From an uncultured virus (IMG/VR IMGVR_UViG_3300025423_000014) (lineage: Duplodnaviria; Heunggongvirae; Uroviricota; Caudoviricetes), in the IMG/VR virus record IMGVR_UViG_3300025423_000014: DNA of 64,000 nucleotides, one strand, 5' to 3'. This document shows positions 32,192 to 48,336 of this stretch, piece after piece. Under the pieces are notes generated by a model, which saw only the letters and a list, made by a program, of their open reading frames with translations, was not told the DNA's origin and did no database searches. Position numbers and translations under genes: made by a program. Position 1 is the first letter of the stretch. Every line of letters starts with the position of its first letter.

Positions 32192-32206
32192 TTGCTTCTC
32201 TTATAT

Positions 32207-32484: not shown

Positions 32485-33150
32485 CTAATGTTTGGGATTA
32501 AATTCACAGGTTGTTACAGGACACCACGGACATAGTGGTGTTGGCGTAGGATTCCATACGCCTGTTGCATGCGCTTGCTCAACCCTAGCTACCCTACGGC
32601 GGTAATTCCACCACTCAGCTTCGGCTTGATCGAGCGTCATACTTTGCTTCACCATATCATCTTTTACGACAAAAAGCAAAGCTGAATTCACTTTTCTAAT
32701 ATGTGGGAAATGGGCAAACACCATAAGTGACATCAGCTTTAATTGCTCTCTGTCAGGATATTTGTTATTACCTGTTTTATAGTCAACAACTTTGGCAGTT
32801 AAGTCATCATCGTTGATAATAAGCAGATCGGCAATACCTCTTACCCAAACGTCTGGACTAGTCCAAGCGCAGGGTTTAAGGTCTGTTGTAAGCGCCATCT
32901 TGTACTCACATAACTTGCGCCCCTCAATAGATGCAAGGGCATCGAGCGTGTCTTTAGCAAATTCAAACTGTGGTGGTATGGGCGTAGCATCTTTAATATA
33001 GAACTCGGCAGCTTCATGGAATTTTGTTCCATATCTTGTGTGTTCGTTCTCTACAAAAGGAAACTTCTTAAGTACCTTAACCTCATGATACCTACGTGGG
33101 CATCCCTCATAGTCTTTTAAAGAACTGTGCGACCATACTACATTAGTCAT
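32485..33150 (-). CDS. PD-(D/E)XK exonuclease (RecB/Cas4-like, Cys cluster)
   Basis: WSHSSL..Y..CPRRY, GIADL, DYKTG, Q...., CPWCP..C. Confidence 0.85.
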   Translation of the reverse strand: MTNVVWSHSSLKDYEGCPRRYHEVKVLKKFPFVENEHTRYGTKFHEAAEFYIKDATPIPPQFEFAKDTLDALASIEGRKLCEYKMALTTDLKPCAWTSPDVWVRGIADLLIINDDDLTAKVVDYKTGNNKYPDREQLKLMSLMVFAHFPHIRKVNSALLFVVKDDMVKQSMTLDQAEAEWWNYRRRVARVEQAHATGVWNPTPTPLCPWCPVTTCEFNPKH

Positions 33151-33455
33151 TTGAATCTCGCTGATTTAACGGCTCTGCTTAAACGAATAGCAAACTGTTC
33201 TACAAATTGTTCTTTGTTGTTTAGTCTGTACTCACCCATGTCTACAAGGATTGCGTGTACCAACTCATGCCAAAATGTTTCCTTAACCTCTGTTGGCGTA
33301 TAGCGTTTGCCTGATTGACTACGGCTATTGAGTTGTATTGCTCGTTTGGTAAATTCAACTGAACCCATTGCGTACTTATCTTCAAGTGCCTCAACAATTT
33401 CAACTGAATACCAATTGTCACCTACCTTAATTTTCTTTGGTATTTCTTTTATCAT
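33147..33455 (-). CDS. HExxH metallopeptidase-like protein
   Basis: TFWHELVHAIL...E.FV. Confidence 0.6.
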   Translation of the reverse strand: MIKEIPKKIKVGDNWYSVEIVEALEDKYAMGSVEFTKRAIQLNSRSQSGKRYTPTEVKETFWHELVHAILVDMGEYRLNNKEQFVEQFAIRLSRAVKSARFK

Positions 33456-35419
33456 CCTTTTGCTTCTCCATATCTTCTGTTATATCCTCCATCAGCATCC
33501 AAAGGTATACCACGCATATAGCTTGGCTCAGCCGTCATCTGCGCTAACACCCAAGGCAATGCCTCCTTCGCTTCCTCATCTGGCACAACGCATATTAACT
33601 CGTCGTGCACAGTTCCAACTACAGGGTACCTTTTCTGTACTCGTAGCATCCCGTCTGTCATCACAATGCGAGCAAGCGCCTGTGTGACGTTGTTAGTAAT
33701 CTTCCCTGCATATATCTTAGTAGCGTCTGGCCCGTATACATACTGGCTCCTACCTTTATCATCTTTAACTTTGCGTAGATCAGGATAAAGCAACTTCATT
33801 CCATTGGGTAATTCTATCTCACCCTTGCGAAATGTCAAACACTTGTGTTTACATTCTGCCCCACCATACAACGCAACTTCTAATAGATCATTGCACATTT
33901 CCCAAAATGATACGACTTGATACGCAGTAGCACGATATATGTCAATGATTCTTTTAGCGGTCACGCAGTGAATAGCTAACTCAAGTTCGCTACAGTTATG
34001 GGGAATTTCCGACATCTTTACCAAGTTGTCTTCCCAATCAAGAAACTTCTCAACCATTTCACTTGTTACACCCAGCTTCTTCGCAAAAGCTTTTTCGTAG
34101 CGGACTGGTGGCGCCCCAAGGAAGCCAACCAATAGTTGCGATGCAAACGAAGCCCATCCGAGACCATACCCACAACCCAAGAGCGCGCTCTTTGCAGACT
34201 GCCGAAGGTCGGGATGGCTCTCCTTACTAAGTCCGGGTATGTTAAACATTTGCGCACCGAACGCCGCATAAGCGTCACTTCCTGACCTGAAGATCGTAAG
34301 CATGTCTTCATAATCACATAGCCACGCAAGGACTCTTGGTTCAATTTGTGAGAGGTCGCCCACGACCAGTTGTGTACCCTCGGGAGCCATAATTGCTTTA
34401 CGTAAGAACGACCCACGTTTGAGGTTTTGCATATTGATAGCGGATCCTTTGGACGCTGACCAACGACCAGACTTCGCACCATAGTACGATAGCGGAACTG
34501 GTAGACTACCTCGCTGACTGATGTCCAAGAACCTTTGCGCTCGTGTGCGTTCTGTCGTTGATTTGACCCGAAGACGCGCTTCACATAAAAGGGCAACGTC
34601 TTCGCGTTCACCATTGAGTAGCGCTTGGAAAAGCGCGTCGTTCTTAGCGAGTGCGAGTGTTTCTTTCCCGGTAGTTTTACTGACTTTGGTTGGCGGAACG
34701 ACGCCAAGCGTTTTAAGTATGGAAGCAAACTGCGGATTCGATGCAAGCGCAGTCTCCTCGATGTTGAGTTTTTGTAGTAGCTTCTCACGTGATGTCCTTT
34801 CTTCTTCTAGTGCTTTGAGTAACATGGCTTCATCTAGTACAAGCATTGGGCGCGTGTACATCTTCAGCGTCATGTCGATGAGTCTGAGTTCCTTAGCAGG
34901 GTATCCTGTTATAAGTCTATTGAAAATCTGTTCACATAGGTATACGTCGTGTTTACAGTATTCGGCAAGTTCAATCTCCACGTCCTTCCGAAGTTCCACG
35001 GCACCATCTGTACTGTGTACGGCTCTCCCTTTGGGGGGAAGATTAAAATCTGACGCAAGCTTGGCGAGACTATTGCCAACCTCCACGCCTCGTAAAGCTC
35101 GTGCCATTGATAGTGTGTCGAAAATGAAAGCGGGGTGTGTGTCGTATTTCCATTCGAGTATGGAAACATCGAATTGGGCGTTATGTGCGAGGATGGCTGT
35201 TTGTTTCCAGTCGTATGTAGATAAGATTCGATGTAGTTCATCGTCTCGATACCATTGTGTGACTTTGTCATTCCCGTATTCGTGGATACAGGCTCCGAAA
35301 GCTTTGAATCGTGCATCTCTTATGTACTCCTCTGTTGTCATCTTACTTAGTGTGTAGTCTTTACTATCCCATCGGGTTTCAAAATCAATGGTCAGTATCG
35401 TCTTGTATGGTGCAGTCAA
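33452..35419 (-). CDS. polA: Family A DNA polymerase with 3'-5' exonuclease domain
   Basis: IDFET/AHNAQFD exonuclease motifs; motif A DLSQIEPR, motif B RQSAKSALLGCGYG, motif C VHDEL. Confidence 0.92.
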   Translation of the reverse strand: MTAPYKTILTIDFETRWDSKDYTLSKMTTEEYIRDARFKAFGACIHEYGNDKVTQWYRDDELHRILSTYDWKQTAILAHNAQFDVSILEWKYDTHPAFIFDTLSMARALRGVEVGNSLAKLASDFNLPPKGRAVHSTDGAVELRKDVEIELAEYCKHDVYLCEQIFNRLITGYPAKELRLIDMTLKMYTRPMLVLDEAMLLKALEEERTSREKLLQKLNIEETALASNPQFASILKTLGVVPPTKVSKTTGKETLALAKNDALFQALLNGEREDVALLCEARLRVKSTTERTRAQRFLDISQRGSLPVPLSYYGAKSGRWSASKGSAINMQNLKRGSFLRKAIMAPEGTQLVVGDLSQIEPRVLAWLCDYEDMLTIFRSGSDAYAAFGAQMFNIPGLSKESHPDLRQSAKSALLGCGYGLGWASFASQLLVGFLGAPPVRYEKAFAKKLGVTSEMVEKFLDWEDNLVKMSEIPHNCSELELAIHCVTAKRIIDIYRATAYQVVSFWEMCNDLLEVALYGGAECKHKCLTFRKGEIELPNGMKLLYPDLRKVKDDKGRSQYVYGPDATKIYAGKITNNVTQALARIVMTDGMLRVQKRYPVVGTVHDELICVVPDEEAKEALPWVLAQMTAEPSYMRGIPLDADGGYNRRYGEAKG

Positions 35420-36198: not shown

Positions 36199-36358
36199 TT
36201 TCTATTTCCTTTATTGCACGTTCTCTTATGCTTTGGTTGAGTATGTTCTTTAACCAAGTGGAACCACCTAGTCTTTGAAACTCATTTTTTTGCGCTAGGG
36301 TCACACGTGCCCCAACTTGTAGTCTACTGTTTGTTAGTTCGGTTTGTGGTCTTGGCAT
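36185..36358 (-). CDS. Small putative DNA-binding protein
   Basis: Likely start MPRPQTEL with AGGAG RBS; F..LGG..WL motif. Confidence 0.5.
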   Translation of the reverse strand: MPRPQTELTNSRLQVGARVTLAQKNEFQRLGGSTWLKNILNQSIRERAIKEIENERR

Positions 36359-36393
36359 TTGTTTCTCCTGTATTTGTCTTTTACGCCAACCGC

Positions 36394-36654
36394 TCACGCT
36401 TTTGCCTCAAAGCGTCTGATCTCCTCGATGATCGCCCATATAGCGGGTGTGGTGCGTGTTGCGTCACCTTGCATACCCTTTTCTACATAGCCACAAAGTT
36501 CTTTTGTTTTGGCGCTTAGGTCTTCGTACATACCCAACAAAATTCTTGCGTTGCCTAGTTCTAAATCAAGCTCTCTTATAGATTCATCCATTGGTGTGCT
36601 CCTAAAAATCTTATCAAAGTTTTCTGCAAATTTAGCGTGATCAATATTACTCAT
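36394..36654 (-). CDS. Hypothetical protein
   Basis: 86 aa ORF with GGAGG RBS. Confidence 0.5.
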   Translation of the reverse strand: MSNIDHAKFAENFDKIFRSTPMDESIRELDLELGNARILLGMYEDLSAKTKELCGYVEKGMQGDATRTTPAIWAIIEEIRRFEAKA

Positions 36655-36760
36655 CGTGTCCTCCTACTGTGTATATAATAAAACAAAATACCGCAACAAT
36701 CCATACGGATGCAACGGCAAGTGCGCCTATTAATAAAAGAATATCTAATACCTCATTCAT
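36647..36760 (-). CDS. 37-aa single-TM peptide (not in the ORF track)
   Basis: MNEVLDILLLIGALAVASVWIVAVFCFIIYTVGGHDE; AAGGAG RBS. Confidence 0.55.
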   Translation of the reverse strand: MNEVLDILLLIGALAVASVWIVAVFCFIIYTVGGHDE

Positions 36761-36773
36761 GTGTTTCTCTCCT

Positions 36774-37019
36774 TTAATTTAACATCCATTTTGGTAATTT
36801 ACCCGAAAGATATACTTTTTTTGAGCTGTTATCTTTTGATTTTTTTAGTTGGTCTTTGGTTATAGTTTCAAAACCTTTTTTACCAGGATACGCCGATTCT
36901 TTGCCTTCTGTCTGCGCCCGTATCTCCATACAGTTACCATGATTAAATTCGTAAGGACTGCCAACCCCTCTTGGTTTTTTACACACAGGGCAAAGGTTTC
37001 GTATCTGTTCTGGTGTCAT
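36774..37019 (-). CDS. Hypothetical Zn-finger-like protein
   Basis: CPVC...H..C. Confidence 0.5.
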   Translation of the reverse strand: MTPEQIRNLCPVCKKPRGVGSPYEFNHGNCMEIRAQTEGKESAYPGKKGFETITKDQLKKSKDNSSKKVYLSGKLPKWMLN

Positions 37020-37150
37020 ATGTTCTTCTCCATTGGGGCACGACTAACTTTTCCCCACATAATCGCAGGTAGCCATTTAATGTGGCGCTCTATAGGAAAA
37101 AATATTTTTAAAACGTAACGATATTCAAATAATTTGATGCTAAGTCTCAT
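37016..37150 (-). CDS. 44-aa hypothetical protein (not in the ORF track)
   Basis: MRLSIKLFEY...PMEKNI; ATGA-coupled at both ends. Confidence 0.5.
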   Translation of the reverse strand: MRLSIKLFEYRYVLKIFFPIERHIKWLPAIMWGKVSRAPMEKNI

Positions 37151-37395
37151 GTGTTCTTCTCCTTGAGGTATTTTTCGTAATCGCTCATTAAAGTTACTGC
37201 CGTTTTTCTATCCCAGTTTGATGGGTAATACGCAACAACAAACTGTGCTTTTTCCTCATCAGTTAACCCTACCCACTCTCTCCCCTCCACCAACCACACC
37301 ACCTCATCTTCTTTAATAAGTCTCTCGTGCGGGTTAGGAAGTCCCATGCACCCACGCTCGAAACAAGCTCTATCGACCATTAGTTTTTCGTTCAT
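37147..37395 (-). CDS. Hypothetical cassette protein (EWVGLTDEE...LKEKNT)
   Basis: Shares the WxGLTxEE motif and the KEKNT end with 37392..37745. Confidence 0.6.
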   Translation of the reverse strand: MNEKLMVDRACFERGCMGLPNPHERLIKEDEVVWLVEGREWVGLTDEEKAQFVVAYYPSNWDRKTAVTLMSDYEKYLKEKNT

Positions 37396-37745
37396 GTGTT
37401 CTTCTCCTTTAATTTAGCTTCTATTGCATTAGCAAAATCAAATACACCATTGGTTATATTTTTTCCAATGCCAGGCTCAGCATCAAAAACTGCAAACCAT
37501 TCGACTGATATTTCTTCATGTGTCAAACCTATCCATTCAGGCTTAACATATTTTTCAGCGCACGCAAGGCAATACAACGCATAACCACCACCAATTCCAC
37601 ATTCAGCGCATCCTTGTTGTGGTGTTGTATATAAAGGCAATGGCTCAACATCGACTGATACTGGTGCTTCAATCTTTGTTGGCTTTGCCCAATAGAAACC
37701 GCCTTTTTGCGGATCAAAATAAGCAACAGGCTCTTCTTTAGTCAT
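37392..37745 (-). CDS. Hypothetical cassette protein (EPVA...PLYT...WIGLT...LKEKNT)
   Basis: Likely start MTKEEPVA at 37745; internal CxxC...CxxC. Confidence 0.6.
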   Translation of the reverse strand: MTKEEPVAYFDPQKGGFYWAKPTKIEAPVSVDVEPLPLYTTPQQGCAECGIGGGYALYCLACAEKYVKPEWIGLTHEEISVEWFAVFDAEPGIGKNITNGVFDFANAIEAKLKEKNT

Positions 37746-38052
37746 TCTCAATCCTTTCTACTTTTTGTTTTGTACATCCTTTGCCGCAATATTCTGAATA
37801 ATGTCGTTCAGTTATTGTTTGATTACCGCACCGAGTAACGTAATGTGTGTTTTCAAATATCCATATCTCACAGTCTTCAAACTTGTAGGCAATCCTTGGT
37901 TTGTTTAATTCAGCCAGTTGTTCAGGGGTAGGAGCAAACACTGAGTAAAGCGCCCGAATTAGTAACCCTATTACCGATCCAAACCCAAAAACAAAGAGCA
38001 AAGCACCGCCAATAGGTGCTATAAAGTCTTCCCAAATATCTTTTCTAGTCAT
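37738..38052 (-). CDS. Hypothetical membrane-anchored protein
   Basis: N-terminal TM helix; Cys-containing C-terminal domain. Confidence 0.55.
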   Translation of the reverse strand: MTRKDIWEDFIAPIGGALLFVFGFGSVIGLLIRALYSVFAPTPEQLAELNKPRIAYKFEDCEIWIFENTHYVTRCGNQTITERHYSEYCGKGCTKQKVERIEND

Positions 38053-38333
38053 TTTTGTCCCCTTGAGAGCACCTCTGCTGATTTCAACTCACCTGTTTCG
38101 CCATCAAATACAACTTTCATATTTGATTCTGGTCTTCTTTCGGAATATCCCCAAAACATAGGCATTTCAAGATACCTAACAATATCTGGCTTAGGTTCTG
38201 GTTTTATTCTGTATTCAACCCATGATGACCATTCAGGACGATCAACCTCCATCCAAATGTTAAGAGCATTTTTATATTCAATCTGAGCACCATCTGCCCA
38301 GGCGTGAATTAAATCTGCGTGTTTATGTTTCAT
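38049..38333 (-). CDS. Hypothetical protein (HKHADLIHAWADGAQI...YRIKP)
   Basis: ATGA-coupled ORF in the cassette array. Confidence 0.6.
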   Translation of the reverse strand: MKHKHADLIHAWADGAQIEYKNALNIWMEVDRPEWSSWVEYRIKPEPKPDIVRYLEMPMFWGYSERRPESNMKVVFDGETGELKSAEVLSRGQK

Positions 38334-38493
38334 TCTTGTCCCCTTGCTGTTCTATAAACGTTCTTTTAATAATTTCTATGGCATTATGGAATTGATCACT
38401 CGCTTTACCAGTTGAAAGAGTCCTAGCCAACACAAGTGCCTCAAGTGCAACTGCTAACGCATAATCTTTAGTTAATATTTCTTCTTTAGTCAT
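38323..38493 (-). CDS. 56-aa hypothetical protein (not in the ORF track)
   Basis: MTKEEILTKDYALAVALEAL...QQGDKNET; fills the gap between coupled genes. Confidence 0.55.
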   Translation of the reverse strand: MTKEEILTKDYALAVALEALVLARTLSTGKASDQFHNAIEIIKRTFIEQQGDKNET

Positions 38494-38705
38494 TCTTGCA
38501 CCCTTGCTTCCATCATTGCATCTGCTATTTCATATGCAAACTGAACTCCTTGTTTTACTCCCAAACCTTGAAAAGCAATTGATTCCATAGCCAAACCTTG
38601 TATAGCTAACCCTGCAAACCAATCTCTTAAATCCATACCTGTATTAGTGCAGGTAGCAATATGACCATCTATTGTTTTTTCATATGTATGTGGAAATGCT
38701 TTCAT
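38490..38705 (-). CDS. Hypothetical protein (AFP...GMDLRDWFA...AYEIADAMMEAR)
   Basis: Likely start MKAFP at 38705 via ATGA overlap. Confidence 0.65.
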   Translation of the reverse strand: MKAFPHTYEKTIDGHIATCTNTGMDLRDWFAGLAIQGLAMESIAFQGLGVKQGVQFAYEIADAMMEARVQE

Positions 38706-38902
38706 TCTTGTCCCCTTGCACGAATAGCTTGAGCACAAATTAACTCAACCCTTAATGTGTAGTAATCGCTTATGCTATCCATAGCATCACACACCTTTGC
38801 GCACTCCTCACGTTCATCTTCAATTAAGGCATCAACAATAGTGCGTACCATACCCTCACTAAAGTGTTCCAAAAGTATGTTTATAGCATCATCCCTAGTC
38901 AT
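38702..38902 (-). CDS. Hypothetical cassette protein (EREECAKVC...IRARGQE)
   Basis: Likely start MTRDD at 38902. Confidence 0.6.
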   Translation of the reverse strand: MTRDDAINILLEHFSEGMVRTIVDALIEDEREECAKVCDAMDSISDYYTLRVELICAQAIRARGQE

Positions 38903-39095
38903 TTTTATCTCCTTTGATTCTCTTCTGATCACGCCATTTAAGCTCTTCTGAAAGCTCTAAAAACTTATCAGGTGCTACCGCCTCCCATTCCATACCTGAG
39001 TTTGTGTTGCTTATCTTTACAACTCCTATTCCAATAATAAGTGCGCTTGTAAATGCCGACTCAAATATCTCATTCATGTCTTTGTCTTGTGTCAT
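38895..39095 (-). CDS. Hypothetical protein
   Basis: 66 aa coupled ORF. Confidence 0.55.
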   Translation of the reverse strand: MTQDKDMNEIFESAFTSALIIGIGVVKISNTNSGMEWEAVAPDKFLELSEELKWRDQKRIKGDKND

Positions 39096-39935: not shown

Positions 39936-40136
39936 TTACTTCTCCTGGTTGTTGTGTCTAACATTATACATATCTTTTAAACGCTCGTTGTACTTCTGCA
40001 CCATTGATTCTTGTAACTTAAGTATCTGTTTTGGGTACAATTCCACTAGCGCCATGCCTATCGTCCAATGCACATCTACATCGCTGTCCATATGATGAAC
40101 TGCGTTCTCAAGCACTTTATCCAAATCAATCTCCAT
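39936..40136 (-). CDS. Hypothetical protein
   Basis: AAGGAG RBS; 66 aa. Confidence 0.5.
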   Translation of the reverse strand: MEIDLDKVLENAVHHMDSDVDVHWTIGMALVELYPKQILKLQESMVQKYNERLKDMYNVRHNNQEK

Positions 40137-40165
40137 TTGTTTCTCCTTTAGTTTAAATAAAGATC

Positions 40166-41330: not shown

Positions 41331-43166
41331 TTAAACAGATGTTGAATCAGGTGTGTCGGCACAAGAGTTCTCAAGCGGTGCGCTTGTTGGATGCACAAGA
41401 GTTTCTTGTTTCTTGGCACGTCTACGTACGCCGTACCAGTCGGAGAGATGTGGATACACATTGTCCGTAGTCTTGAGCCACTCGATGAAGTGCATCTTAT
41501 CTAAATGTTTCCACGATGCGACACGACAGAACATAACAGACGCATGGGTAAACTCGATCTGTGCAAGCAGACGTTCTTTCTTGAGCGATGCTCTAAAGAT
41601 ACGCAACTCAACAGTATCGTAGTCCTTACCATTGGTATAGCAATGTTTATTGATCTGCAACCGATCACGCTCTGCTCTTGATAAGTTCTGTGTGTTGATC
41701 ATGTAGTAACGATCACCGCCTTTACCCTTGACTGCCTTGGATGGATTCTGTAATGCTTCCTCGCCCTCGACTTGGCAGTACGACTGGGCTTGTCTATCTT
41801 TGCGTGGATGACGACCTGCAATCTTACGAATGAAATCGGTGTTCTCCTCGCAGTTAATAAACATAACGAACTTACCAAACACAAGTGGACTGAACGCTTT
41901 AGAGTGGACGTGAATGTGCATACCGCAAGTACCTACGTCCCATGCACGATACGATGGATCTATATCCCAGTTCTTGAAGCGCTTGATATGCTCGGCTAGT
42001 CCACGAGGCGCAGTCACAATCTCTAGTCCGTTGTCGGGCAACGAGCCGTCAGACTTACACACGCAATACTCTGTACCTAATTGCTGTCGTACATTGGTGA
42101 CTGCATCATCACGATACTTATCTCTACCGCTAGTCATCTCGAACTCGATACCCATGCGGAAGTCACCATGCGTAGATGATATAAGTTTGTGGTCAGGCTC
42201 TAGTACCCTAAGCACATTGGTTGCGTAGTCCATAAGATAGTTGGGATCACCTGGGTCTCTGTCGTCATCATCATTGTCATCGTAGTCGTCTTCTGCGTAT
42301 GAATAGTACGCATCTCTACTCTCATGGTAATACACCTCCTCGTTCTCACGATCCCAATACTCACTATGATCCTCGACATACACATAGTTATCGCCGAAAC
42401 AACGATCACAAACTTGCTCGTCTCCCGATGAACCTAGATCGCTGTGCATCTCGTTAATATACTCAATGTGACCACAAGTATCTGCAATAGCAATAGTCAA
42501 CGTACCATCTAAGTGTTTGCTTGCAAGAACCTCACGACACTTCTCAAAGGCTGTAACTAGGTAGTCGTGGCGTGAACGATCTGCCGAATACAAATCCATG
42601 AACACATCGCACCACTCTCGTGCATCATCCTCCTCACCCGATAACAACTGATTGAACGCTGATTTGAGTAGCTTGTAGTTAGCACGAGCTTTGTTATAAC
42701 GCACCATGTCATATTCATCATTGTTACAGTTATAAGTGCGACCTTTGTAAACGATGTGCTTGGGTGTAGAGCCTGTGAACGATAGTCTGTTTGATCGTTC
42801 TGCATATATATTCCTGAGCCGTCTAGTTCTGTAATAGTCAAGCTGGTTTGCTATCAGATTAAAGAGTTTCTCCATGTAGTAGTTGTTGTTGGTATACAGC
42901 AGGTTGATCTCGTATGTGTTTAACTGTACTGGCTCAGGAAAAAGCCTTGCATAAAACTCACTATGACTCGTGCGTGTACTCGCATCAAACATTTGACTAT
43001 CAAAAGCCAGATATCTACCGCCTTGAGATACACCCGCCATAGCACCAAGCCATTGCTCTCTGGTCATGTCAAGAATTGCATACCGCCTATCAGCAAACAC
43101 AGCAAAGAGTCTGACTGCTTGTGTGTCGTAGTTTGAAAAGGGTAAAGTAGTTACATAAAATTTCAT
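41331..43166 (-). CDS. Putative amidoligase (COOH-NH2 ligase superfamily)
   Basis: GIEFEM, KSDGSL...GLEIVTAP, CGMHIHV, RY..IN, TVELRIFRAS motifs; N-terminal Zn-ribbon-like CxH/CxxC and an acidic linker. Confidence 0.8.
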   Translation of the reverse strand: MKFYVTTLPFSNYDTQAVRLFAVFADRRYAILDMTREQWLGAMAGVSQGGRYLAFDSQMFDASTRTSHSEFYARLFPEPVQLNTYEINLLYTNNNYYMEKLFNLIANQLDYYRTRRLRNIYAERSNRLSFTGSTPKHIVYKGRTYNCNNDEYDMVRYNKARANYKLLKSAFNQLLSGEEDDAREWCDVFMDLYSADRSRHDYLVTAFEKCREVLASKHLDGTLTIAIADTCGHIEYINEMHSDLGSSGDEQVCDRCFGDNYVYVEDHSEYWDRENEEVYYHESRDAYYSYAEDDYDDNDDDDRDPGDPNYLMDYATNVLRVLEPDHKLISSTHGDFRMGIEFEMTSGRDKYRDDAVTNVRQQLGTEYCVCKSDGSLPDNGLEIVTAPRGLAEHIKRFKNWDIDPSYRAWDVGTCGMHIHVHSKAFSPLVFGKFVMFINCEENTDFIRKIAGRHPRKDRQAQSYCQVEGEEALQNPSKAVKGKGGDRYYMINTQNLSRAERDRLQINKHCYTNGKDYDTVELRIFRASLKKERLLAQIEFTHASVMFCRVASWKHLDKMHFIEWLKTTDNVYPHLSDWYGVRRRAKKQETLVHPTSAPLENSCADTPDSTSV

Positions 43167-43216
43167 TTGATTCTCCTAGTTTTTAAAATGCCTATGAACT
43201 GCATAGGCTACAGATC

Positions 43217-43823: not shown

Positions 43824-44525
43824 TTAGTCTTCTAGTCCATGCCATGTGTGTGGTACGGCATCCGTTGGTTTGAGTTGCTCTATTCTTTTTATAGCGTTTT
43901 GCATTTGGGATATAAGCTCGGCTCTTTCCTCGGTCGGCTCGATCAGTTGCTCTGTCTGAGCGTTGCCCAGTTCTTTTATGGTGCGGTTGAGTAACCTCTC
44001 CCGCTGTTTGGTGTTCGGTCTTTGAGTACGCTGAAAGGGTACTTTGCGTTTAGTCTTGGGTGCATGAGGTATCTGCTCGAATAGTTCACACACTTGTAGT
44101 TGCTTAGTCATGGGTATCCAATCCGTCCAATGCACACCCTTGTTCTGTATGTCCGCTTGTCTAGCTAGTTCGCTAGGTGTGTAAGGGTTGTTGTCCTCAT
44201 CTCTAAGTAACTGCATTTGCTTGAACTTATTAAGTAGCTTATCCATCACCGCAATGTAAGCGTTAAACGCTACCTCTCGTTCTCCCTTGTACTTGCTCTC
44301 ATGTTTGATGCCAACCCTTGCGTTGGCTAGTTCGTATACAAGGGGGCTGAGTAACTCAGACCATAAGCGTTTGTGTTGAATGGTGCGTAGTCTCTCGGAC
44401 TTGAGTTTGTGTTTAAGATTAAGTAACTCTTGTTTCTTTAACTCTCGTGCCTCGGGTTGTGGGATACGCTTGGTTAAAGCGTTGTGAATTTCGTTCGGGG
44501 TCATGTTGAGGTATGTCTTTGGCAT
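43824..44525 (-). CDS. Hypothetical early protein
   Basis: 233 aa basic helical protein adjacent to the long inverted repeat. Confidence 0.6.
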   Translation of the reverse strand: MPKTYLNMTPNEIHNALTKRIPQPEARELKKQELLNLKHKLKSERLRTIQHKRLWSELLSPLVYELANARVGIKHESKYKGEREVAFNAYIAVMDKLLNKFKQMQLLRDEDNNPYTPSELARQADIQNKGVHWTDWIPMTKQLQVCELFEQIPHAPKTKRKVPFQRTQRPNTKQRERLLNRTIKELGNAQTEQLIEPTEERAELISQMQNAIKRIEQLKPTDAVPHTWHGLED

Positions 44526-44561
44526 GATTAAACACCTTTTTGGTTTGTAGTCTCAGGTAGT

Positions 44562-44847
44562 GTCCGTGATTAAGAGAGTTGCCTAAACTTTCGCCAGTTG
44601 GAAACCCGCATAAACACAGGGCGGACTCGTATTATAGCCATAGATTCTATCATTTTTAAATTGCTCTATTTAACTTTAGTTTCTTTACTTGTAAGTACAG
44701 GCAAAAGAATACGCACACATATGGAAATGCTCTCATATATATAAATAGATTTAAATAGATAAGTAATAAGGCACAAAATGAGTGTACGCCAGTATTCATG
44801 GGGCTTGGCGACTGGTAATTGTTTAGTACGCTTACTTAATCACGGAC
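44562..44847. repeat. Long degenerate inverted repeat, candidate replication origin
   Basis: Outer 13-bp perfect IR GTCCGTGATTAAG / CTTAATCACGGAC with further collinear matching blocks over ~110-bp arms; AT-rich centre. Confidence 0.7.
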
Positions 44848-44882
44848 TAACGTACAAACAGTGATTAAGCAACATTCGATAG

Positions 44883-45131
44883 TTACTTAATCTCTTTTGG
44901 GGAGAAATCTCCCCGTTGTATCCAAGCAAGATCAAAGACATGGGGGAAGTATTCATAGGTGTTGCCCTCGCTATCTTCTACGTAGACTCTGCCTGAACTA
45001 GAGGGTTTGTGTGGTGACGCACCGCCTGTGATTGTGTACTGTTCGTCTCGTGATGAGATGACTGTCTCGCCCTGTTGTACTGATGCACCATTGGCATGGG
45101 CAAGGTAAAAGTTGTTGTGTCTTAGTTCCAT
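44883..45131 (-). CDS. Hypothetical early protein (PHKPSSSGRVYV...EYFPHVF)
   Basis: AAGGAG RBS; 82 aa. Confidence 0.65.
   Translation of the reverse strand: MELRHNNFYLAHANGASVQQGETVISSRDEQYTITGGASPHKPSSSGRVYVEDSEGNTYEYFPHVFDLAWIQRGDFSPKEIK
44899..44914. repeat. 16-bp palindrome GGGGAGAAATCTCCCC (copy 4 of 6)
   Basis: Lies in the last codons of 44883..45131. Confidence 0.8.
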
Positions 45132-45141
45132 GTGTATCTCC

Positions 45142-45249
45142 TTAGATGAATAAAAACCAGACTGGTGTCCAGTTGCGTTGATTGCGTTTGGCTTCCTCTG
45201 TTGCGAGCCATACGAGTTGCTTGGTTGTTTTGATTTGGCGTTTAGTCAT
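45142..45249 (-). CDS. 35-aa early peptide (not in the ORF track)
   Basis: MTKRQIKTTKQLVWLATEEAKRNQRNWTPVWFLFI; AGGAG RBS. Confidence 0.55.
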   Translation of the reverse strand: MTKRQIKTTKQLVWLATEEAKRNQRNWTPVWFLFI

Positions 45250-45251
45250 GA

Positions 45252-45356
45252 TTAAGCTCCTATTGATTGAGAGAGGGTTTGAAAGTAAACGATGATGGCA
45301 TACACAACTATGACGAACACAGCAAGGATAAGTAAGTGTTCAGTTAGATAACGCAT
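45252..45356 (-). CDS. 34-aa single-TM early peptide (not in the ORF track)
   Basis: MRYLTEHLLILAVFVIVVYAIIVYFQTLSQSIGA; AAGGA RBS. Confidence 0.55.
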   Translation of the reverse strand: MRYLTEHLLILAVFVIVVYAIIVYFQTLSQSIGA

Positions 45357-45426
45357 GATTAAGTTCCTTTAGACAAAGATTAAGACTGCGCAGAGACACC
45401 CCCGCCTCTGCGCTCGGGAAAAGAAC

Positions 45427-45442
45427 AGGGACAAATGTCCCC
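45427..45442. repeat. Palindrome variant AGGGACAAATGTCCCC (copy 5 of 6)
   Basis: One outer mismatch, which is a G-U pair in a minus-strand transcript. Confidence 0.8.
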
Positions 45443-45447
45443 GATGA

Positions 45448-45843
45448 TTAAGCAACTTGCTTAAGAACAGCGATAGCCTCGCTAACACTATCGAACTGTG
45501 CCAAGAACTCAAGGGCACTCGCACGAACCTCTTTCGCAATGCGTAGACTTTTCTTAGGCTTAACCTCGCTCGGTGCAATCTCGCTCACCATACGACTCAA
45601 AGCCTTACGACAACCCTCGTAGTGCTCTGCACCACTATCAAGCACAAGTGTGCCCTCTGCCTTACCTGAACCCTCAACAAGCCCAACACCATACCACTCT
45701 GCAAAGATAGGCAGTAGAGTAGAACGAACTACATCACGAGCTTTACCCTTGAGCATTTTCTTGAGATCAACGATAGCAAGTTCATAAACGTATTTACCAT
45801 TGAGTGCTTCAACGACTACAGACTTAATTGTTTTGACAGACAT
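45448..45843 (-). CDS. First early gene, hypothetical
   Basis: Likely start MSVKTIK at 45843 with AGGAGAAATCAAATG. Confidence 0.6.
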   Translation of the reverse strand: MSVKTIKSVVVEALNGKYVYELAIVDLKKMLKGKARDVVRSTLLPIFAEWYGVGLVEGSGKAEGTLVLDSGAEHYEGCRKALSRMVSEIAPSEVKPKKSLRIAKEVRASALEFLAQFDSVSEAIAVLKQVA

Positions 45844-45866
45844 TTGATTTCTCCTAAAGATTGAAT

Positions 45867-45882
45867 GGGGACAGATGTCCCC
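45867..45882. repeat. 16-bp palindrome GGGGACAGATGTCCCC (copy 6 of 6)
   Basis: In the 5' leader of the first early gene. Confidence 0.85.
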
Positions 45883-45910
45883 GATACCGACTAGAGCCAA
45901 TCCCTAACCG

Positions 45911-45936
45911 ATACCTCTATTATACTACCGAGGTAT
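45911..45936 (-). promoter_or_regulatory. Candidate early promoter: TATAAT flanked by the inverted repeat ATACCTC/GAGGTAT
   Basis: ATTATA at 45919-45924 reads TATAAT on the minus strand; no good -35. Confidence 0.45.
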
Positions 45937-46107
45937 TACACAGCACCCAATAACAGGCAGAAACGAGAACTAAAGACCCCACCCTACCCCCACAACCCTC
46001 TTTTGGCACGGCTAGGCATGCTTGGCGTGAACAGTGTTTCTCAGGCGCAAATCAATTTTTTAAAAAATTATAAAAAACCCAGAGTAAAACGTTAGACATT
46101 TACAAAT

Positions 46108-46134
46108 AAAAAAAGCCCCGGTCAAAGCCGGGGC
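46108..46134 (-). terminator. Rho-independent terminator
   Basis: Minus strand GCCCCGG-CTTTGA-CCGGGGC followed by T7. Confidence 0.8.
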
Positions 46135-46191
46135 GAAGGAGGCACTGCACCTCTAGGAGAAGCAAATGAGCAAACAGTTGCACATTTACCT
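46108..46191 (-). ncRNA. Candidate anti-RBS small RNA (~85 nt)
   Basis: Promoter TTGTAA-N17-TATACT (46226..46198), intrinsic terminator, and CAUUUGCUUCUCCUAG complementary to early-gene initiation sites. Confidence 0.55.
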
Positions 46192-46235
46192 AAAAGTAGT
46201 ATACACTATCCATATCGAGGTTACAAGGACCGCGC

Positions 46236-46823
46236 ATGTTAGAACACCTTATGGATTATGAGCCAGACGTGGGTGAATACCCACAAGATTTTGTTCCCCT
46301 TGAAAAAGCGGAACCCTCAGCTATTGTCGACGCTAAATCAAACACAGTAGATTGGTTAAAAACACTAGGCGCTGTAGACAGCGAACAACAAGTTAATGAA
46401 CTTGAAACCCAACACGCTAGAAAAGCGTTTGCCAGTATAGTGTCTGCGCAACCACAAGATATTTCTCATCAAGCCCTTGCTGAAGTAAAAACACCACAAG
46501 CCGTAAGACATTTAGTTGGTATGCTGACCGCATATGACTGGGAGTTTGTAGAACGTGCTAAAGAGCTTCGTGGCTACACGGTAGCTAAAATTTTAGAAGA
46601 ATGTGAAAACCCAAGCGCCAATATAAGACTCAAGGCGTTATCTCTTTTGGGCAAAGTAACGGAAGTGGGACTGTTTACAGAAAAGATTGAGATTAAAAAA
46701 GCAGAACTCTCAGACGCGGAACTGGACGGGCGCATTAAAGAAAAGCTCAACCGGTTTATGGGTGTTGTGGATGTGGTCACGTTAGAAACTAAAAATGAAT
46801 CTACAGAACATAACAACGCTTAG
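46236..46823 (+). CDS. terS: Probable terminase small subunit
   Basis: Immediately upstream of terL; RLKALSLLGK...GLFTEKIEI helical motif. Confidence 0.65.
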   Translation: MLEHLMDYEPDVGEYPQDFVPLEKAEPSAIVDAKSNTVDWLKTLGAVDSEQQVNELETQHARKAFASIVSAQPQDISHQALAEVKTPQAVRHLVGMLTAYDWEFVERAKELRGYTVAKILEECENPSANIRLKALSLLGKVTEVGLFTEKIEIKKAELSDAELDGRIKEKLNRFMGVVDVVTLETKNESTEHNNA

Positions 46824-48336
46824 TAAAGTAGAGCTTGAAGCTCTTATGCGGGCGTTGCCCCACATGTCGTTAAAAGACAAGCTAGAGCTATTTGAAGATT
46901 TAGAAATTAGGGAAAGACGGGCAAGGTTGTTAGCTGCGGAGCAGTCAATGCTTGGATTTGCAACAGCTGTTTACCCAGGATTTAAGATTGGACCGCACCA
47001 TAAAAAACTTGCCAGAATCTTTACAGATGTGATTGAGGGCAAAAAGCGCAGAGTTATTATCAACATTGCGCCTCGTATGGGCAAGTCAGAATTCAGTTCT
47101 TATTTATTTCCAGCATATTTTTTAGGCAAGTTCCCAGACAAGAAGATCATCATGGGAACGCACACAGCGGGACTCTCAGAAGATTTTGGACGCAGAGTTA
47201 GAAACTTAATTGAATCGGAAGAGTACCATGAAGTTTTCCCTAATACAAACATATCAGACGATCAAAAAGCTGCTGGTAAATGGTCTACGTCAGCCGGTGG
47301 ACAGTACTATGCCGCTGGAGTGGGCGGCGCTTTGGCTGGGAGGGGTGCCGATCTTTTCGTCATTGACGACCCGCACTCGGAGCAAGATGTTAAGGCGAAT
47401 TCACGATTAGCGTTTGATACTGCATGGTCTTGGTTTCAGACGGGACCGCTACAGCGTTTGATGCCAGGCGGCGCTATTATTGTGATCATGACGCGTTGGT
47501 CGATGCTGGACTTAACCGGCAGACTTTTGGACTATCAGATTAAAAACCCCGACTCACTACCTTGGGAGTTGGTTGAACTCCCCGCCATATTAAATGAAGG
47601 CACAGAAGACGAGAAGTCACTTTGGCCGGAGCAGTGGAAACTAGAAGTTTTAAAAACAACCAAAGCCTCAATTGATCCTAGATTTTGGAACGCGCAATAC
47701 ATGCAACAGCCTACGATGGATACATCAGCCATTGTGCCTAGGAAGTCTTGGAGAATTTGGGATAAAGAAGATCCACCACACTGTACATTTGTAATACAAA
47801 CTTGGGATACGGCGTACGAAACAAAGACAAGCGCCGACTATTCTGCGTGTACAACATGGGGTATATTCTTCAATGAAGAAGATAAGATGAAGCCGCATAT
47901 CATTTTATTGGATGCATTTAAGGATAGAATGGCGTTTCCGGATTTAAAAGTAACGGCGCTTAAACACTATAGACAATGGGAACCTGATTCGTTTATTGTT
48001 GAAAAGAAAGCTGCAGGTGCACCGCTGATCCAGGAATTTAGGGCTATGGGTATTTTTGTTGAAGAAGACAATCCAAGCCGAGGCAATGACAAGATGGTCA
48101 GACTTAACGCGGTATCTACTTTGTTTGCATCAGGGGTTGTCTGGGCGCCAGACACACGCTGGGCTAGAGAAGTGATTGAAGAAATTGCTGTGTTCCCTGT
48201 TGGAGAACATGATGACTTTGTGGATACAACAACAATGGCACTGTTAAGATTTAGAAGAGGCGGGTTTGTGCCGCTAGACAGTGATGAGAAAGAAGATCCT
48301 GTGTACTTCAGGCGCAGACAACACGCATACTATTAA
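46795..48336 (+). CDS. terL: Terminase large subunit
   Basis: APRMGKS Walker A, VIDDPH Walker B, WDTA, EKKAAG and HDDFVD nuclease motifs. Confidence 0.92.
   Translation: MNLQNITTLSKVELEALMRALPHMSLKDKLELFEDLEIRERRARLLAAEQSMLGFATAVYPGFKIGPHHKKLARIFTDVIEGKKRRVIINIAPRMGKSEFSSYLFPAYFLGKFPDKKIIMGTHTAGLSEDFGRRVRNLIESEEYHEVFPNTNISDDQKAAGKWSTSAGGQYYAAGVGGALAGRGADLFVIDDPHSEQDVKANSRLAFDTAWSWFQTGPLQRLMPGGAIIVIMTRWSMLDLTGRLLDYQIKNPDSLPWELVELPAILNEGTEDEKSLWPEQWKLEVLKTTKASIDPRFWNAQYMQQPTMDTSAIVPRKSWRIWDKEDPPHCTFVIQTWDTAYETKTSADYSACTTWGIFFNEEDKMKPHIILLDAFKDRMAFPDLKVTALKHYRQWEPDSFIVEKKAAGAPLIQEFRAMGIFVEEDNPSRGNDKMVRLNAVSTLFASGVVWAPDTRWAREVIEEIAVFPVGEHDDFVDTTTMALLRFRRGGFVPLDSDEKEDPVYFRRRQHAYY

What the first reader, a model, noticed from the sequence alone, without database searches (positions are those of the whole stretch)
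46108..46226. Candidate phage small RNA that could silence many of its own early/replication genes by pairing with their RBS and start codon
Seen: on the minus strand there is a sigma70 promoter (TTGTAA-N17-TATACT, 46226..46198), ~85 nt without a sense ORF, and a strong intrinsic terminator (46134..46108). The predicted RNA contains CAUUUGCUUCUCCUAG (from 46168..46153), an anti-Shine-Dalgarno plus anti-AUG. Minus-strand genes have matching initiation regions. Amidoligase CTAGGAGAATCAAATG matches 15/16 (43164-43179). SNF2 helicase GAGAAGCAAATG matches 12/12, with 8 further pairs after a 2-nt bulge (32181-32200). AGGAGAAACAAATG matches 13/14 (40134-40147 and 36356-36369). AGGAGAAATCAAATG matches with one bulge and one mismatch (45841, 43694, 43515). 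GGAGAAGCAAA matches 11/11 (33459-33469). A second segment (46133-46148) is complementary over 16 nt (one G-U) to polA mRNA at 33556-33571. The promoter overlaps a divergent candidate terS promoter (TTGCAC-N18-TACACT, 46178-46207). Inference: a trans-acting, multi-target anti-RBS sRNA coupled to the early-to-late switch, with early-gene initiation regions homogenised to match it.
Basis: partly seen in the sequence, partly recalled or inferred. Interest (0 to 1): 0.85.

Follow-up and report, generated by a model that had tools for sequence, protein, structure and literature searches.

The report
Conserved phage small RNA with anti-ribosome-site motif
Between the early and late genes of this uncultured freshwater phage lies a gene for a folded RNA of about 85 bases, kept by every relative examined, whose open middle is the mirror image of the ribosome-docking sequence of the phage's early genes, so it probably controls their translation, though the RNA itself has not been observed.

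Summary
The promoter-like site, the strong minus-strand terminator, the CAUUUGCUUCUCCUAG tract and all listed matches, including the 16-nt polA match, are in the sequence.

A covariance model finds one copy in the window (46106-46193, minus strand). It also finds one in each of 73 of 80 related IMG/VR loci, always at the same place; the 7 misses lack that DNA. The fold is SL1, an open UCUCCU linker, SL2, a U-rich spacer and a terminator.
- 93.1% of cells are paired, against 72.5% in shuffles and 45-50% in slid controls. 20 of 21 pairs show compensatory changes.
- 206 G·U cells against 11 A·C cells put the structure on the minus-strand RNA.
- The plus-strand 31-codon ORF is not conserved: 26 of 58 distinct loci have no start codon, and the rest use three frames.

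The seed pairs better with early than late initiation regions in 5 of 6 complete genomes. This is not unique: the mirror image of an ordinary early start site scores as well. Seed/target covariation is weak. No RNA data exist.

Verdict: a real, new phage sRNA family (about 0.9). Trans repression of early genes is plausible (about 0.45) but unproven.

The parts
46108..46191 (-). Predicted small RNA of about 84 nt. The start is inferred 6-8 nt after the -10; the end lies in the U-tract.
   Evidence: The covariance model hit spans 46106-46193 at 66.1 bits, E 2.5e-17, and is the only hit in the window. MFE is -34.3 kcal/mol, z -4.0, with 0 of 200 shuffles as stable.
46198..46226 (-). Sigma-70-like promoter of the RNA: TTGTAA (46226..46221), 17 nt, TATACT (46203..46198).
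   Evidence: It scores 9/12. In 58 distinct relatives TTG is kept at -35 (47, 43 and 41 of 58) and TAnACT at -10, at fixed distance. This conservation is confounded by the overlapping plus-strand promoter and the terS leader.
46178..46207 (+). Divergent late (terS) promoter candidate TTGCAC-N18-TACACT. Its -10 overlaps the RNA's -10 through a near-palindrome, and its -35 lies inside the RNA gene.
   Evidence: The pattern sits next to the terminator in 59 loci plus the window. It matches once in each of 5 of 6 complete genomes; G004 has no match to the regular expression and G003 has one extra minus-strand match. GCAA (the complement of TTGC) stays constant whether it forms a loop or a stem in SL1.
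46160..46191 (-). Stem-loop 1.
   Evidence: Upper pairs covary fully. In the lower pairs the 3' arm stays fixed while the 5' arm toggles through G.U/A-U and C-G/U-G (pairs 4-84 to 8-74).
46155..46165 (-). Conserved motif UUGCUUCUCCU (plus strand AGGAGAAGCAA). The open part in the fold is CUCCUA, 46159..46154.
   Evidence: GGAGAAGCAA is exact at the syntenic place in 40 of 66 loci with enough upstream DNA, and 6 more differ by one base. The UCUCC core is present in 54 of 58 distinct RNAs, with mean unpaired probability 0.88 against 0.42 for the rest of the molecule.
46139..46153 (-). Stem-loop 2 (GAGGU...GCCUC).
   Evidence: The sequence is variable but pairing is kept: 5 of 5 pairs have both-side changes and 87.6% of cells are paired. 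Examples are GAUGG/CCAUC and AAGGC/GCCUU.
46108..46138 (-). U-rich spacer (CUUC), intrinsic terminator hairpin (46134..46115) and U7 tract (46114..46108).
   Evidence: One search finds 7 G-C pairs followed by TTTTTTT. 6 of 7 pairs covary and 96.7% of cells are paired. No T-tract follows the hairpin on the plus strand.
46166..46261 (+). 31-codon plus-strand ORF (MSKQLHIY...). It is judged not to be a gene.
   Evidence: Of 58 distinct loci, 26 have no start 4-10 nt after GGAG, 25 have ATG, 4 have TTG and 3 have no SD-like element. The ORFs run 5-92 codons, use three frames and encode unlike peptides.
33556..33571 (-). 16-nt stretch inside polA, complementary to the sRNA's SL2 3' arm and terminator base.
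   Evidence: The match is real. It lies in the codons ...EEAKEAL.... The sRNA partner is structured and variable, and no equivalent match appears in 5 relatives. It is probably fortuitous or specific to this strain.

Best explanation
This is the gene of a small non-coding RNA of about 84 nt, made by a lineage of uncultured freshwater podophage-like viruses.

Transcription starts on the minus strand at a host-type promoter. The -10 of that promoter shares base pairs with the -10 of the late (terS) promoter candidate, which is the only match to that promoter pattern in the window and in 4 of the 5 other complete genomes. Transcription ends at a strong intrinsic terminator just ahead of the early-gene control region.

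The RNA folds into two hairpins plus the terminator hairpin. Between the first two hairpins it displays a short open pyrimidine tract, UCUCCU, extended 5' by UUGCU. That tract is the complement of AGGAGAAGCAA, the Shine-Dalgarno-plus-spacer consensus of the phage's early and replication genes.

The most likely mechanism (inferred, not shown) is as follows. The tract nucleates pairing on the Shine-Dalgarno sequences of early mRNAs. Pairing then spreads into the weak base of SL1. Ribosomes are shut out or the mRNAs are exposed to RNases. Early-gene output is thereby lowered as a group. This would be an RNA counterpart of what T4 does with the proteins RegB and RegA.

Because the two -10 elements overlap, making the RNA and starting late transcription should be mutually exclusive on one template. 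The direction and timing of that coupling are unknown.
For: Shown:
- One model hit in the window, and one in each of 73 of 80 relatives. All are on the strand opposite TerL and at the same place.
- 62 distinct sequences give 93.1% paired cells, against 72.5% in shuffles (0 of 500 reach it) and 45-50% in slid controls. 20 of 21 pairs have compensatory changes.
- 206 G.U against 11 A.C cells of 1233: 93.1% paired as minus RNA, 77.3% as plus.
- All 50 distinct sequences folded alone give the same three-hairpin layout.
- The window RNA has z -4.0.
- The UCUCC core is open, 0.88 against 0.42.
- The 3' arm of SL1 (UUGCU) stays fixed while its partner toggles through wobble pairs. This points to a sequence constraint beyond pairing.
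- There is no conserved ORF and no Rfam family.

Supporting the target model:
- The seed binds early TIRs better than late ones: window -11.04 vs -6.93 kcal/mol, p 3.6e-6. Own seed against own genes gives p 1e-4 to 4e-6 in 5 of 6 genomes.
- Shuffled seeds average -7.0, sd 0.8.
- Exact GGAGAAGCAA occurs 5, 4 and 4 times on the early strand of three relatives.
- The divergent seed of G003 has a 13-nt perfect match across the start codon of one early gene and ranks 1 of 99.
- Own seed against own TIRs shows a slight advantage across 44 loci, p about 0.04.
- Phages with the UUUCUCC seed have 9 GGAGAAAG and 0 GGAGAAG[^A] nearby. Canonical-seed phages have 22 and 14.
Against: - No transcript, 5' end or 3' end has been seen, and no RNA run holds the region.
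- The promoter score is ordinary for this DNA. Its conservation is confounded by the overlapping plus-strand promoter.
- Only about 6 nt of the seed are open.
- Early genes also have stronger SDs generally (16S-like probe p 8e-4).
- Reverse complements of ordinary early TIRs do as well as the real seed, which ranks 2 of 87. The match could therefore reflect descent from a TIR rather than function.
- There is no diagonal advantage among six complete genomes. G003's seed shows no early preference (p 0.26).
- G007, whose seed complement is GGAGAAACAA, has 4 exact ACAA matches and 4 one-mismatch GCAA sites on its early strand.
- Canonical-seed phages have more GGAGAAAGCA (10) than GGAGAAGCA (2) near the RNA gene.
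- The covariation p-values are not corrected for relatedness.
- Gene starts come from my own crude caller, with 4 manual corrections.
- The host and its Hfq status are unknown.
Confidence: 0.45

Rival explanations
1. The RNA is real, but its working targets are not the phage's early mRNAs. It may pair with host mRNAs, or with any strong Shine-Dalgarno sequence, or with another RNA. The fit to early phage TIRs would then be a side effect of those TIRs carrying the strongest SDs.
For: The invariant part is essentially an anti-SD (UCUCC), and the flanks vary in distant relatives. Early TIRs also bind a generic 16S-like anti-SD better than late ones. Covariation with phage TIRs is weak.
Against: The extended motif UUGCUUCUCCU matches the phage-specific spacer GCAA, not only GGAG. 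It is sequence-constrained beyond pairing. The host is unknown, so no host target could be examined.
Confidence: 0.15
2. The unit works mainly at the DNA and transcription level. A promoter competes with the overlapping late promoter, and a terminator shields the early control region. The RNA would be a by-product.
For: The -10 elements overlap through a near-palindrome, and the plus -35 lies inside the transcribed region. The late-type promoter pattern matches once in each of 5 of 6 complete genomes. In many relatives the terminator is followed directly by an early promoter-like TTGACA-N18-TATAGT.
Against: A by-product needs neither two covarying hairpins upstream of the terminator nor a near-invariant open motif. 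The distance from motif to promoter varies from about 4 to 50 nt, which argues against a DNA-site role for the motif.
Confidence: 0.12
3. The RNA acts by binding a protein rather than by base-pairing. It could be a sponge or cofactor for Hfq, ribosomal protein S1, or a phage RNA-binding protein.
For: It has an open pyrimidine tract between hairpins, a U-rich spacer and a long U tail. Such features are known to bind Hfq and S1; that link is from my own knowledge.
Against: No partner is identified. The exact mirror relation to the early TIR consensus would be a coincidence.
Confidence: 0.1
4. It is a promoter-proximal terminated leader like lambda PR'-6S RNA-tR'. A phage antiterminator would let RNA polymerase read through into the minus-strand arm.
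For: The layout fits: promoter, short RNA, strong terminator, then a long co-directional operon.
Against: The arm downstream is the early/replication arm, and many relatives have their own strong promoter-like site right after the terminator. A leader does not explain the conserved open anti-SD. No Q-like gene was looked for.
Confidence: 0.05
5. AGGAGAAGCAAATG is the working start site of a small plus-strand protein, or an upstream start for terS.
For: The SD and ATG spacing is good in the window. ATG follows in 25 of 58 distinct loci. In two loci (L018, L081) the frame runs into terS.
Against: 26 of 58 loci have no start codon. Three frames, lengths of 5-92 codons and unlike peptides are seen. 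The conserved plus-strand promoter lies downstream of the element. G.U asymmetry puts the structure on the other strand.
Confidence: 0.03

Closest known systems
c4 antisense RNA of phages P1 and P7 (Rfam RF01695)
   Same: It is a phage-encoded structured RNA of similar size, about 77 nt. Its exposed stretches pair around a ribosome-binding site of a phage mRNA and block translation (review PMC12197685, passages seen).
   Different: By my own recollection, c4 is cut out of the same operon transcript that it controls and has one target region, which serves immunity. Here there is a separate promoter-to-terminator unit and a consensus shared by many genes. The Rfam scan listed no C4 match at E up to 1.
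T4 RegB endoribonuclease and RegA translational repressor
   Same: They switch off many early phage mRNAs as a group through their initiation regions. RegB cuts GGAG in early TIRs. RegA competes with ribosomes on about 30 mRNAs (PMC3014915, passages seen).
   Different: Those are proteins. Here the proposed agent is an RNA that would recognise AGGAGAA by base-pairing. There is no homology; the likeness is one of function only.
C/U-rich sRNAs that pair with Shine-Dalgarno sequences of many mRNAs (RsaE/RoxS, RNAIII of Gram-positive bacteria)
   Same: An unpaired pyrimidine motif between or on hairpins binds G-rich SDs of several targets. This is from my own knowledge; no paper was read on it here.
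   Different: Those are bacterial and chromosomal, with UCCC/CCCC motifs. None of these families appeared in the Rfam scan. Here the RNA is phage-encoded and the targets would be the phage's own genes.
Enterobacterial Hfq-type trans-acting sRNAs
   Same: Own promoter, 50-300 nt, an open conserved seed, a U-rich stretch before an intrinsic terminator, and a long U tail. The family features are recalled from my own knowledge; the anatomy here comes.
   Different: The host is unknown and Hfq binding cannot be tested. The seed sits in the middle between two hairpins rather than at the 5' end.
Lambda PR'-6S RNA-tR' unit
   Same: A short terminated transcript lies in front of a long operon on the same strand. 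This is from my own knowledge.
   Different: In lambda the terminator is overridden by Q to express late genes, and the RNA's sequence is not known to act in trans. Here the downstream arm is early, many relatives have their own promoter-like site there, and the RNA has covarying hairpins and an invariant motif.
PAK_P3 sRNA1 and sRNA2 (virulent Pseudomonas phage)
   Same: Abundant RNAs of about 100 nt from intergenic regions of a lytic phage, proposed to act in trans on translation (PMC4933390, passages seen).
   Different: Those were observed by RNA-seq. Their proposed matches are a tRNA T-loop-like 11-mer and single phage genes, not a shared ribosome-binding site. There is no sequence relation.

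Membership tests
Stand-alone trans-acting base-pairing sRNA | Intrinsic terminator at the 3' end | tested here: met
   7 G-C pairs plus U7 on the minus strand only. 6 of 7 pairs covary and 96.7% of cells are paired.
Stand-alone trans-acting base-pairing sRNA | Own promoter | tested here: inconclusive
   There is a 9/12 sigma-70 match, but 7 such sites occur in 3 kb against 5.0 expected. The -35 TTG and -10 TAnACT are kept at fixed distance in 58 distinct relatives. They overlap a plus-strand promoter and the terS leader, which could explain the conservation.
Stand-alone trans-acting base-pairing sRNA | Conserved secondary structure supported by covariation, on the transcribed strand | tested here: met
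   93.1% paired against 72.5% in shuffles and 45-50% slid. 20 of 21 pairs are compensatory. 206 G.U against 11 A.C cells. The alignment is fitted to the model and so leans towards it.
Stand-alone trans-acting base-pairing sRNA | Conserved single-stranded seed | tested here: met
   UCUCC occurs in 54 of 58 distinct RNAs with unpaired probability 0.88. Only about 6 nt are open; the rest of the 16-nt seed lies in SL1.
Stand-alone trans-acting base-pairing sRNA | No conserved coding frame | tested here: met
   Plus strand: 26 of 58 loci have no start, and three frames are used. Minus strand: a 27-codon GTG frame without SD runs through the terminator.
Stand-alone trans-acting base-pairing sRNA | Transcript observed | not testable with these tools
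   No RNA run is listed for the region. 20 DNA holders are listed, all freshwater metagenomes.
Stand-alone trans-acting base-pairing sRNA | Regulation of targets through seed pairing | not testable with these tools
   Only in-silico complementarity is available.
c4 antisense RNA (Rfam RF01695) | Match to the family's covariance model | tested here: not met
   Scanning 44000-48000 at E up to 1 gave six weak, terminator-driven matches to other families and none to C4.
c4 antisense RNA (Rfam RF01695) | Processed from the operon transcript that carries its target | tested here: not met
   The unit lies between divergent arms with its own promoter-like site and terminator.
Lambda PR'-tR'-type antitermination leader | Downstream operon depends on read-through and has no promoter of its own | tested here: not met
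   By eye, most relatives have a TTGACA-like -35 and a TATA(A/G)T-like -10 directly after the terminator. A strict pattern finds it in 17 of 58. In the window itself this site has a shortened spacer.
Lambda PR'-tR'-type antitermination leader | Q-like antiterminator gene | not tested
   No search for Q-like proteins was made.
Small plus-strand protein or leader peptide | Conserved start codon, frame and peptide | tested here: not met
   Of 58 distinct loci, 25 have ATG, 4 TTG, 26 none and 3 no SD. Frames 0, 1 and 2 relative to terS are used, and lengths run 5-92 codons.

The most novel reading that the evidence does not exclude
One small phage RNA may act as a master off-switch for the whole early regulon. 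It would recognise a phage-specific extended ribosome-binding tag, AAGGAGAAGCAA, shared by early genes. It would be fired from a promoter that cannot be occupied at the same time as the candidate late promoter, which matches once per genome in 5 of 6 complete genomes. The choice between more silencer RNA and late genes at a single DNA site would then form an RNA-based early/late toggle. This would be the RNA equivalent of T4 RegA/RegB, spread through a large clade of freshwater phages.
Probability: 0.25. Interest if true: 0.85.

Novelty: new variant of a known kind. Interest (0 to 1): 0.62.

Why it matters
Few sRNAs of lytic phages have a known role. None that I found in the searches is reported to control a phage's own early genes as a group through their ribosome-binding sites.

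This RNA family has unusually good comparative support: 62 distinct sequences, compensatory changes in three hairpins, and a clear strand signal. It is not in Rfam. If the proposed action is right, it shows an RNA route to the early shut-off that T4 achieves with proteins. It would also explain why early genes in these phages carry such uniform initiation regions.

The family is a ready test case, because the 400-bp control region can be cloned without culturing the phage.

Tried and rejected
- RNA evidence: the look-up of sequencing runs listed no RNA holder, only DNA runs of freshwater metagenomes.
- DNA similarity to GenBank phages: no match.
- Own assembly not held. G001 is an identical fragment and adds nothing.
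- Rfam: only sub-threshold, terminator-driven matches.
- Distant cultured relatives by TerL (about 50% identity): HTVC027P has E 0.48 and DSL-LC04 has E 0.049. MinM2 has E 3.9e-5, but that hit lies between two same-strand genes and looks like an ordinary terminator preceded by UUCCUCCC. I do not count it as a member.
- PAK_P3 sRNA2, which I recalled as an anti-RBS RNA, is not one. The paper proposes a tRNA T-loop-like 11-mer.
- The MAFFT alignment of all 50 distinct sequences (A1) misaligned SL2. I built the model from 22 of the 50, chosen for similar length (A2).
- RNAduplex on long target windows gave meaningless long duplexes. I used contiguous-match and short-window scores instead.
- polA second site: real, but not conserved.
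- Cross-genome seed-by-TIR matrix: no diagonal advantage in six genomes.
- Rejected as explanations: a tRNA or tmRNA (none in the window), and a DNA-level packaging site (G.U asymmetry).
- Earlier notes of this scan describe look-alike claims in other phages. They are unchecked AI notes and were not used as evidence.
Full report
**Setting.** The window is most of a phage genome with two arms. Minus-strand genes at 25799-45843 encode replication and nucleotide functions: a DUF927 primase-helicase-like protein, an SNF2 helicase, PolA, an exonuclease, an amidoligase and a glutamine amidotransferase. Plus-strand genes from 46236 onwards, continuing at 1-25667, encode a putative terS (the ORF upstream of TerL; no Pfam or PHROG match), TerL, a putative portal protein (no Pfam match) and a 2646-residue LPD38 protein. 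TerL is about 50% identical to that of Pelagibacter phages HTVC027P/HTVC023P and some freshwater phages. The DNA occurs in freshwater metagenomes. The finding lies in the 392-bp gap between the two diverging arms.

**Check of the observation.** Three cautions apply.
- The promoter score (9/12) is not rare in this DNA: 7 sites in 3 kb against 5.0 expected.
- In the predicted fold only CUCCUA is open; CAUUUGCUU forms the 3' arm of the first hairpin.
- Many target matches are expected for the mirror image of any typical early start site. When the reverse complement of each gene's own initiation region is used as a mock seed, the real seed ranks 2 of 87.

**Relatives.** A TerL search of IMG/VR confirmed 596 related stretches and kept the best 80 (73-89% identity). 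Twenty-two loci aligned to window 46061-46227 by blastn. A pattern search found the same layout in 59 loci plus the window, giving 50 distinct sequences. That layout is a minus-strand terminator, then an AGGAGAA-type element, then a plus-strand TTGCNC-N18-TACACT.

I built a covariance model from 22 of the 50 distinct sequences, chosen for similar length. I then searched the window and all 80 loci, 626 kb on both strands.
- There were 74 hits at E up to 0.01.
- There was one hit per source, always on the strand opposite TerL and about 650-740 nt upstream of it.
- The 7 loci without a hit all have fewer than 720 nt upstream of TerL.
- The four weakest hits (20-28 bits: L077, L060, L055, L058) are doubtful members.
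- In the window the only hit is 46106-46193 (66.1 bits).

**Structure.** Folded one by one, all 50 distinct sequences give the same plan. A 5' hairpin (SL1) is followed by an open stretch of 6-8 nt containing UCUCC. Then come a second hairpin (SL2) of variable sequence, a U-rich spacer, a G+C-rich terminator hairpin and 7-8 U.

On the model-based alignment (62 distinct rows, 21 pairs):
- 93.1% of cells form standard pairs, against 72.5% in column shuffles (0 of 500 reach it) and 45-50% when partners are slid by 1-3 columns.
- 20 of 21 pairs have changes on both sides.
- 247 cells have such changes, against 84 in shuffles.
The alignment is fitted to the model and so leans towards it, but the slid controls use the same alignment.

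Among 1233 cells there are 206 G·U pairs and only 11 A·C. The structure is therefore 93.1% paired if the minus strand is the RNA and 77.3% if the plus strand is. Together with the one-sided U-tract, this places the functional molecule on the minus strand. The window's RNA folds at -34.3 kcal/mol, with z -4.0.

**The motif.**
- GGAGAAGCAA is exact at the syntenic place in 40 of 66 loci with enough upstream DNA, and 6 more differ by one base.
- UCUCC is present in 54 of 58 distinct RNAs, with mean unpaired probability 0.88 against 0.42 elsewhere.
- In the lower half of SL1 the 3' arm (UUGCU) stays constant while the 5' arm alternates A/G and C/U through wobble pairs. The upper pairs change on both sides. 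This indicates that UUGCUUCUCCU is constrained as a sequence, not only as a pairing partner.
- The distance from the motif to the promoter varies from about 4 to 50 nt, partly through an inserted mini-hairpin in some relatives. This fits an RNA element better than a DNA site for a transcription factor.
- The invariant GCAA near the 5' end is a tetraloop in short versions and part of a stem in the window. Its constancy is best explained by the -35 (TTGC) of the plus-strand promoter on the other strand.

**Not a protein.** Of 58 distinct loci, 26 have no ATG, GTG or TTG 4-10 nt after GGAG, 25 have ATG, 4 have TTG and 3 lack the element. The frames are 5-92 codons long, fall in all three frames relative to terS, and give unlike peptides. 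Where peptides look alike, they are read from the conserved promoter DNA. The window's MSKQLHIY... frame is not the frame used in other clades. ATG follows the motif in 43% of loci, more often than chance. This fits either descent from a start site or selection to extend pairing over start codons.

**Promoters.** The minus-strand -10 (TATACT; TACACT in most relatives) and the plus-strand -10 (TACACT) occupy the same base pairs through a near-palindrome (GTGTACAC). The plus -35 lies within the first 15 nt of the RNA gene. The plus-strand pattern matches once in each of 5 of 6 complete genomes; G004 gave no match and G003 one extra minus-strand match. It may therefore be the sole promoter of this type for the late arm. 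Occupancy by RNA polymerase should be mutually exclusive on one template. Which way it is regulated is unknown.

**Targets.** Gene starts come from my own simple caller: ORFs of 35 codons or more on the arm's strand, with the start chosen by SD, and 4 manual corrections in the window.
- In the window the 16-nt seed gives mean duplex energies of -11.04 (39 early TIRs) against -6.93 kcal/mol (47 late), p 3.6e-6.
- A generic 16S-like anti-SD also separates them, -6.72 against -5.10, p 8e-4.
- Shuffled seeds average -7.0, sd 0.8.
- In five further complete or near-complete genomes, the own seed prefers early TIRs in four (p 1e-4 to 4e-6).
- G003 has a divergent seed (UUGCUAUCUCCAUUGC), lacks SL2 and shows no preference (p 0.26).
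- There is no own-against-other advantage in the 6x6 matrix.

Exact copies of GGAGAAGCAA on the early strand number 5, 4 and 4 in G002, G005 and G006. About 0.1 per genome is expected from length alone. The early initiation regions are thus strikingly uniform, whatever the cause.

**Hints of co-change.**
- G003's odd seed has a perfect 13-nt match (AGCAAUGGAGAUA) across the start codon of the gene after polA. This gene is a phrog_1233 protein, the orthologue of window 33147-33455, and ranks 1 of 99. The same gene ranks 8/88, 13/102, 4/93 and 17/95 in four other genomes.
- Across 44 distinct loci with at least 4 called TIRs in the 3 kb next to the RNA gene, the double-centred own-seed score is -0.18 kcal/mol, reached by 3.9% of permutations.
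- Five loci whose seed has an extra U (UUUCUCC) have 9 GGAGAAAG and 0 GGAGAAG[^A] nearby. The 36 canonical loci have 22 and 14.

**Against co-change.**
- Canonical-seed loci have 10 GGAGAAAGCA but only 2 GGAGAAGCA nearby.
- G007, whose seed complement is GGAGAAACAA, has 4 exact ACAA matches and 4 one-mismatch GCAA sites on its early strand.
- None of these tests corrects for relatedness.
I rate covariation as inconclusive with a slight positive lean.

**The polA site.** The 16-nt match is real and unusual. However, the sRNA side is the 3' arm of SL2 plus the base of the terminator. The mRNA side is ordinary coding sequence. Nothing similar appears in five relatives.

**Interpretation.** I put the existence of a structured minus-strand RNA at about 0.9. 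The best-supported mechanism is pairing of the open UCUCCU, extending into UUGCU as SL1 opens, with AGGAGAAGCAA-type initiation regions of early mRNAs. This would lower their translation or stability as a group (0.45 for the whole statement). It would work like T4 RegB, which cuts GGAG in early TIRs, and RegA, which competes with ribosomes on about 30 mRNAs (PMC3014915, passages seen). Here the agent would be an RNA. Steps shown are the gene anatomy, conservation, strand, open motif and preferential complementarity. Steps inferred are transcription, the start point, pairing in vivo, the sign of regulation and its timing. Rivals are listed separately.

**Known relatives.** No Rfam family matches.
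- The c4 RNA of P1/P7 is the nearest phage precedent for an RNA blocking a phage ribosome-binding site (review PMC12197685, passages). It differs in origin, targets and sequence.
- The PAK_P3 sRNAs are of another type (PMC4933390, passages).
- Four full-text searches turned up no report of a lytic-phage sRNA aimed at the shared ribosome-binding site of its own early genes. Subscription journals and supplements were not covered.
- An earlier unchecked note of this scan (e1-5848210) describes what sounds like the same RNA family in a related freshwater phage. It is not independent evidence.

**Verdict.** This is a new, well-supported phage sRNA family whose anti-ribosome-site action is plausible but untested.

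Noticed in passing
window 46083-46100; relatives e.g. L008 just downstream of the terminator on the minus strand: Most relatives carry a 16-bp palindrome TGTCnAACGTTnGACA whose right half is a TTGACA -35. About 18 nt later comes TATA(A/G)T and then a G-rich block (GGGGTGGGG). It looks like an early promoter with an operator. In the window the palindrome is degenerate (TGTCTAACGTTTTAC) and the spacer to TATAAT (46072..46067) is only about 10 nt.
   Followed up: partly
L025:3213-3290 (+) and L075:2932-3004 (+): ARAGORN calls tRNA-like genes with four-base anticodons (catc, caag) on the plus strand, directly beside the sRNA terminator. This was seen in 2 of 8 relatives scanned; none is in the window. 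Plus-strand transcription may therefore approach the sRNA gene in those phages.
   Followed up: no
relatives' terS leaders, e.g. L008:3372-3440; window 46208-46235: In most relatives terS has no Shine-Dalgarno sequence near its ATG (…CCTACGCAAAATG). A conserved CGAGG lies about 35 nt upstream, with a small hairpin (GTGC…GCAC) between them. This suggests a structure that brings SD and start codon together. The window has AAGGA 6 nt before the ATG.
   Followed up: no
window 36647-37395 and 37738-39095 (minus strand): There are runs of small early genes with near-identical initiation regions (AAGGAGAAGAACACATG three times; CAAGGGGACAAGAATG three or four times). These look like tandem paralogues, which accounts for part of the uniformity of early start sites.
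   Followed up: no
L015, L024, L076, L080 (SL1 of the sRNA): A mini-hairpin of about 30 nt (TTGGCCTTTGGCCAA with flanks) is inserted into SL1 in two separate clades, lengthening the RNA to 121-129 nt.
   Followed up: no
window 33456-33475: The gene after polA (phrog_1233, unknown function) is preceded by a 14-codon frame, ATGGAGAAGCAAAAGGATGA..., that overlaps its start. The best seed match of this gene lies in that upstream ATG GAG AAG CAA.
   Followed up: partly
window 17727-25667 (+): A 2646-residue protein with a C-terminal LPD38 domain ends the late arm. It is a large polyvalent virion-type protein.
   Followed up: no
window 45940-46060; several relatives: A further conserved block, AAAATTGATTTGCG(C/G)..ACA(C/G)TGTT, lies between the terminator and the first early gene in the window and several relatives. 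Its function is unknown.
   Followed up: no
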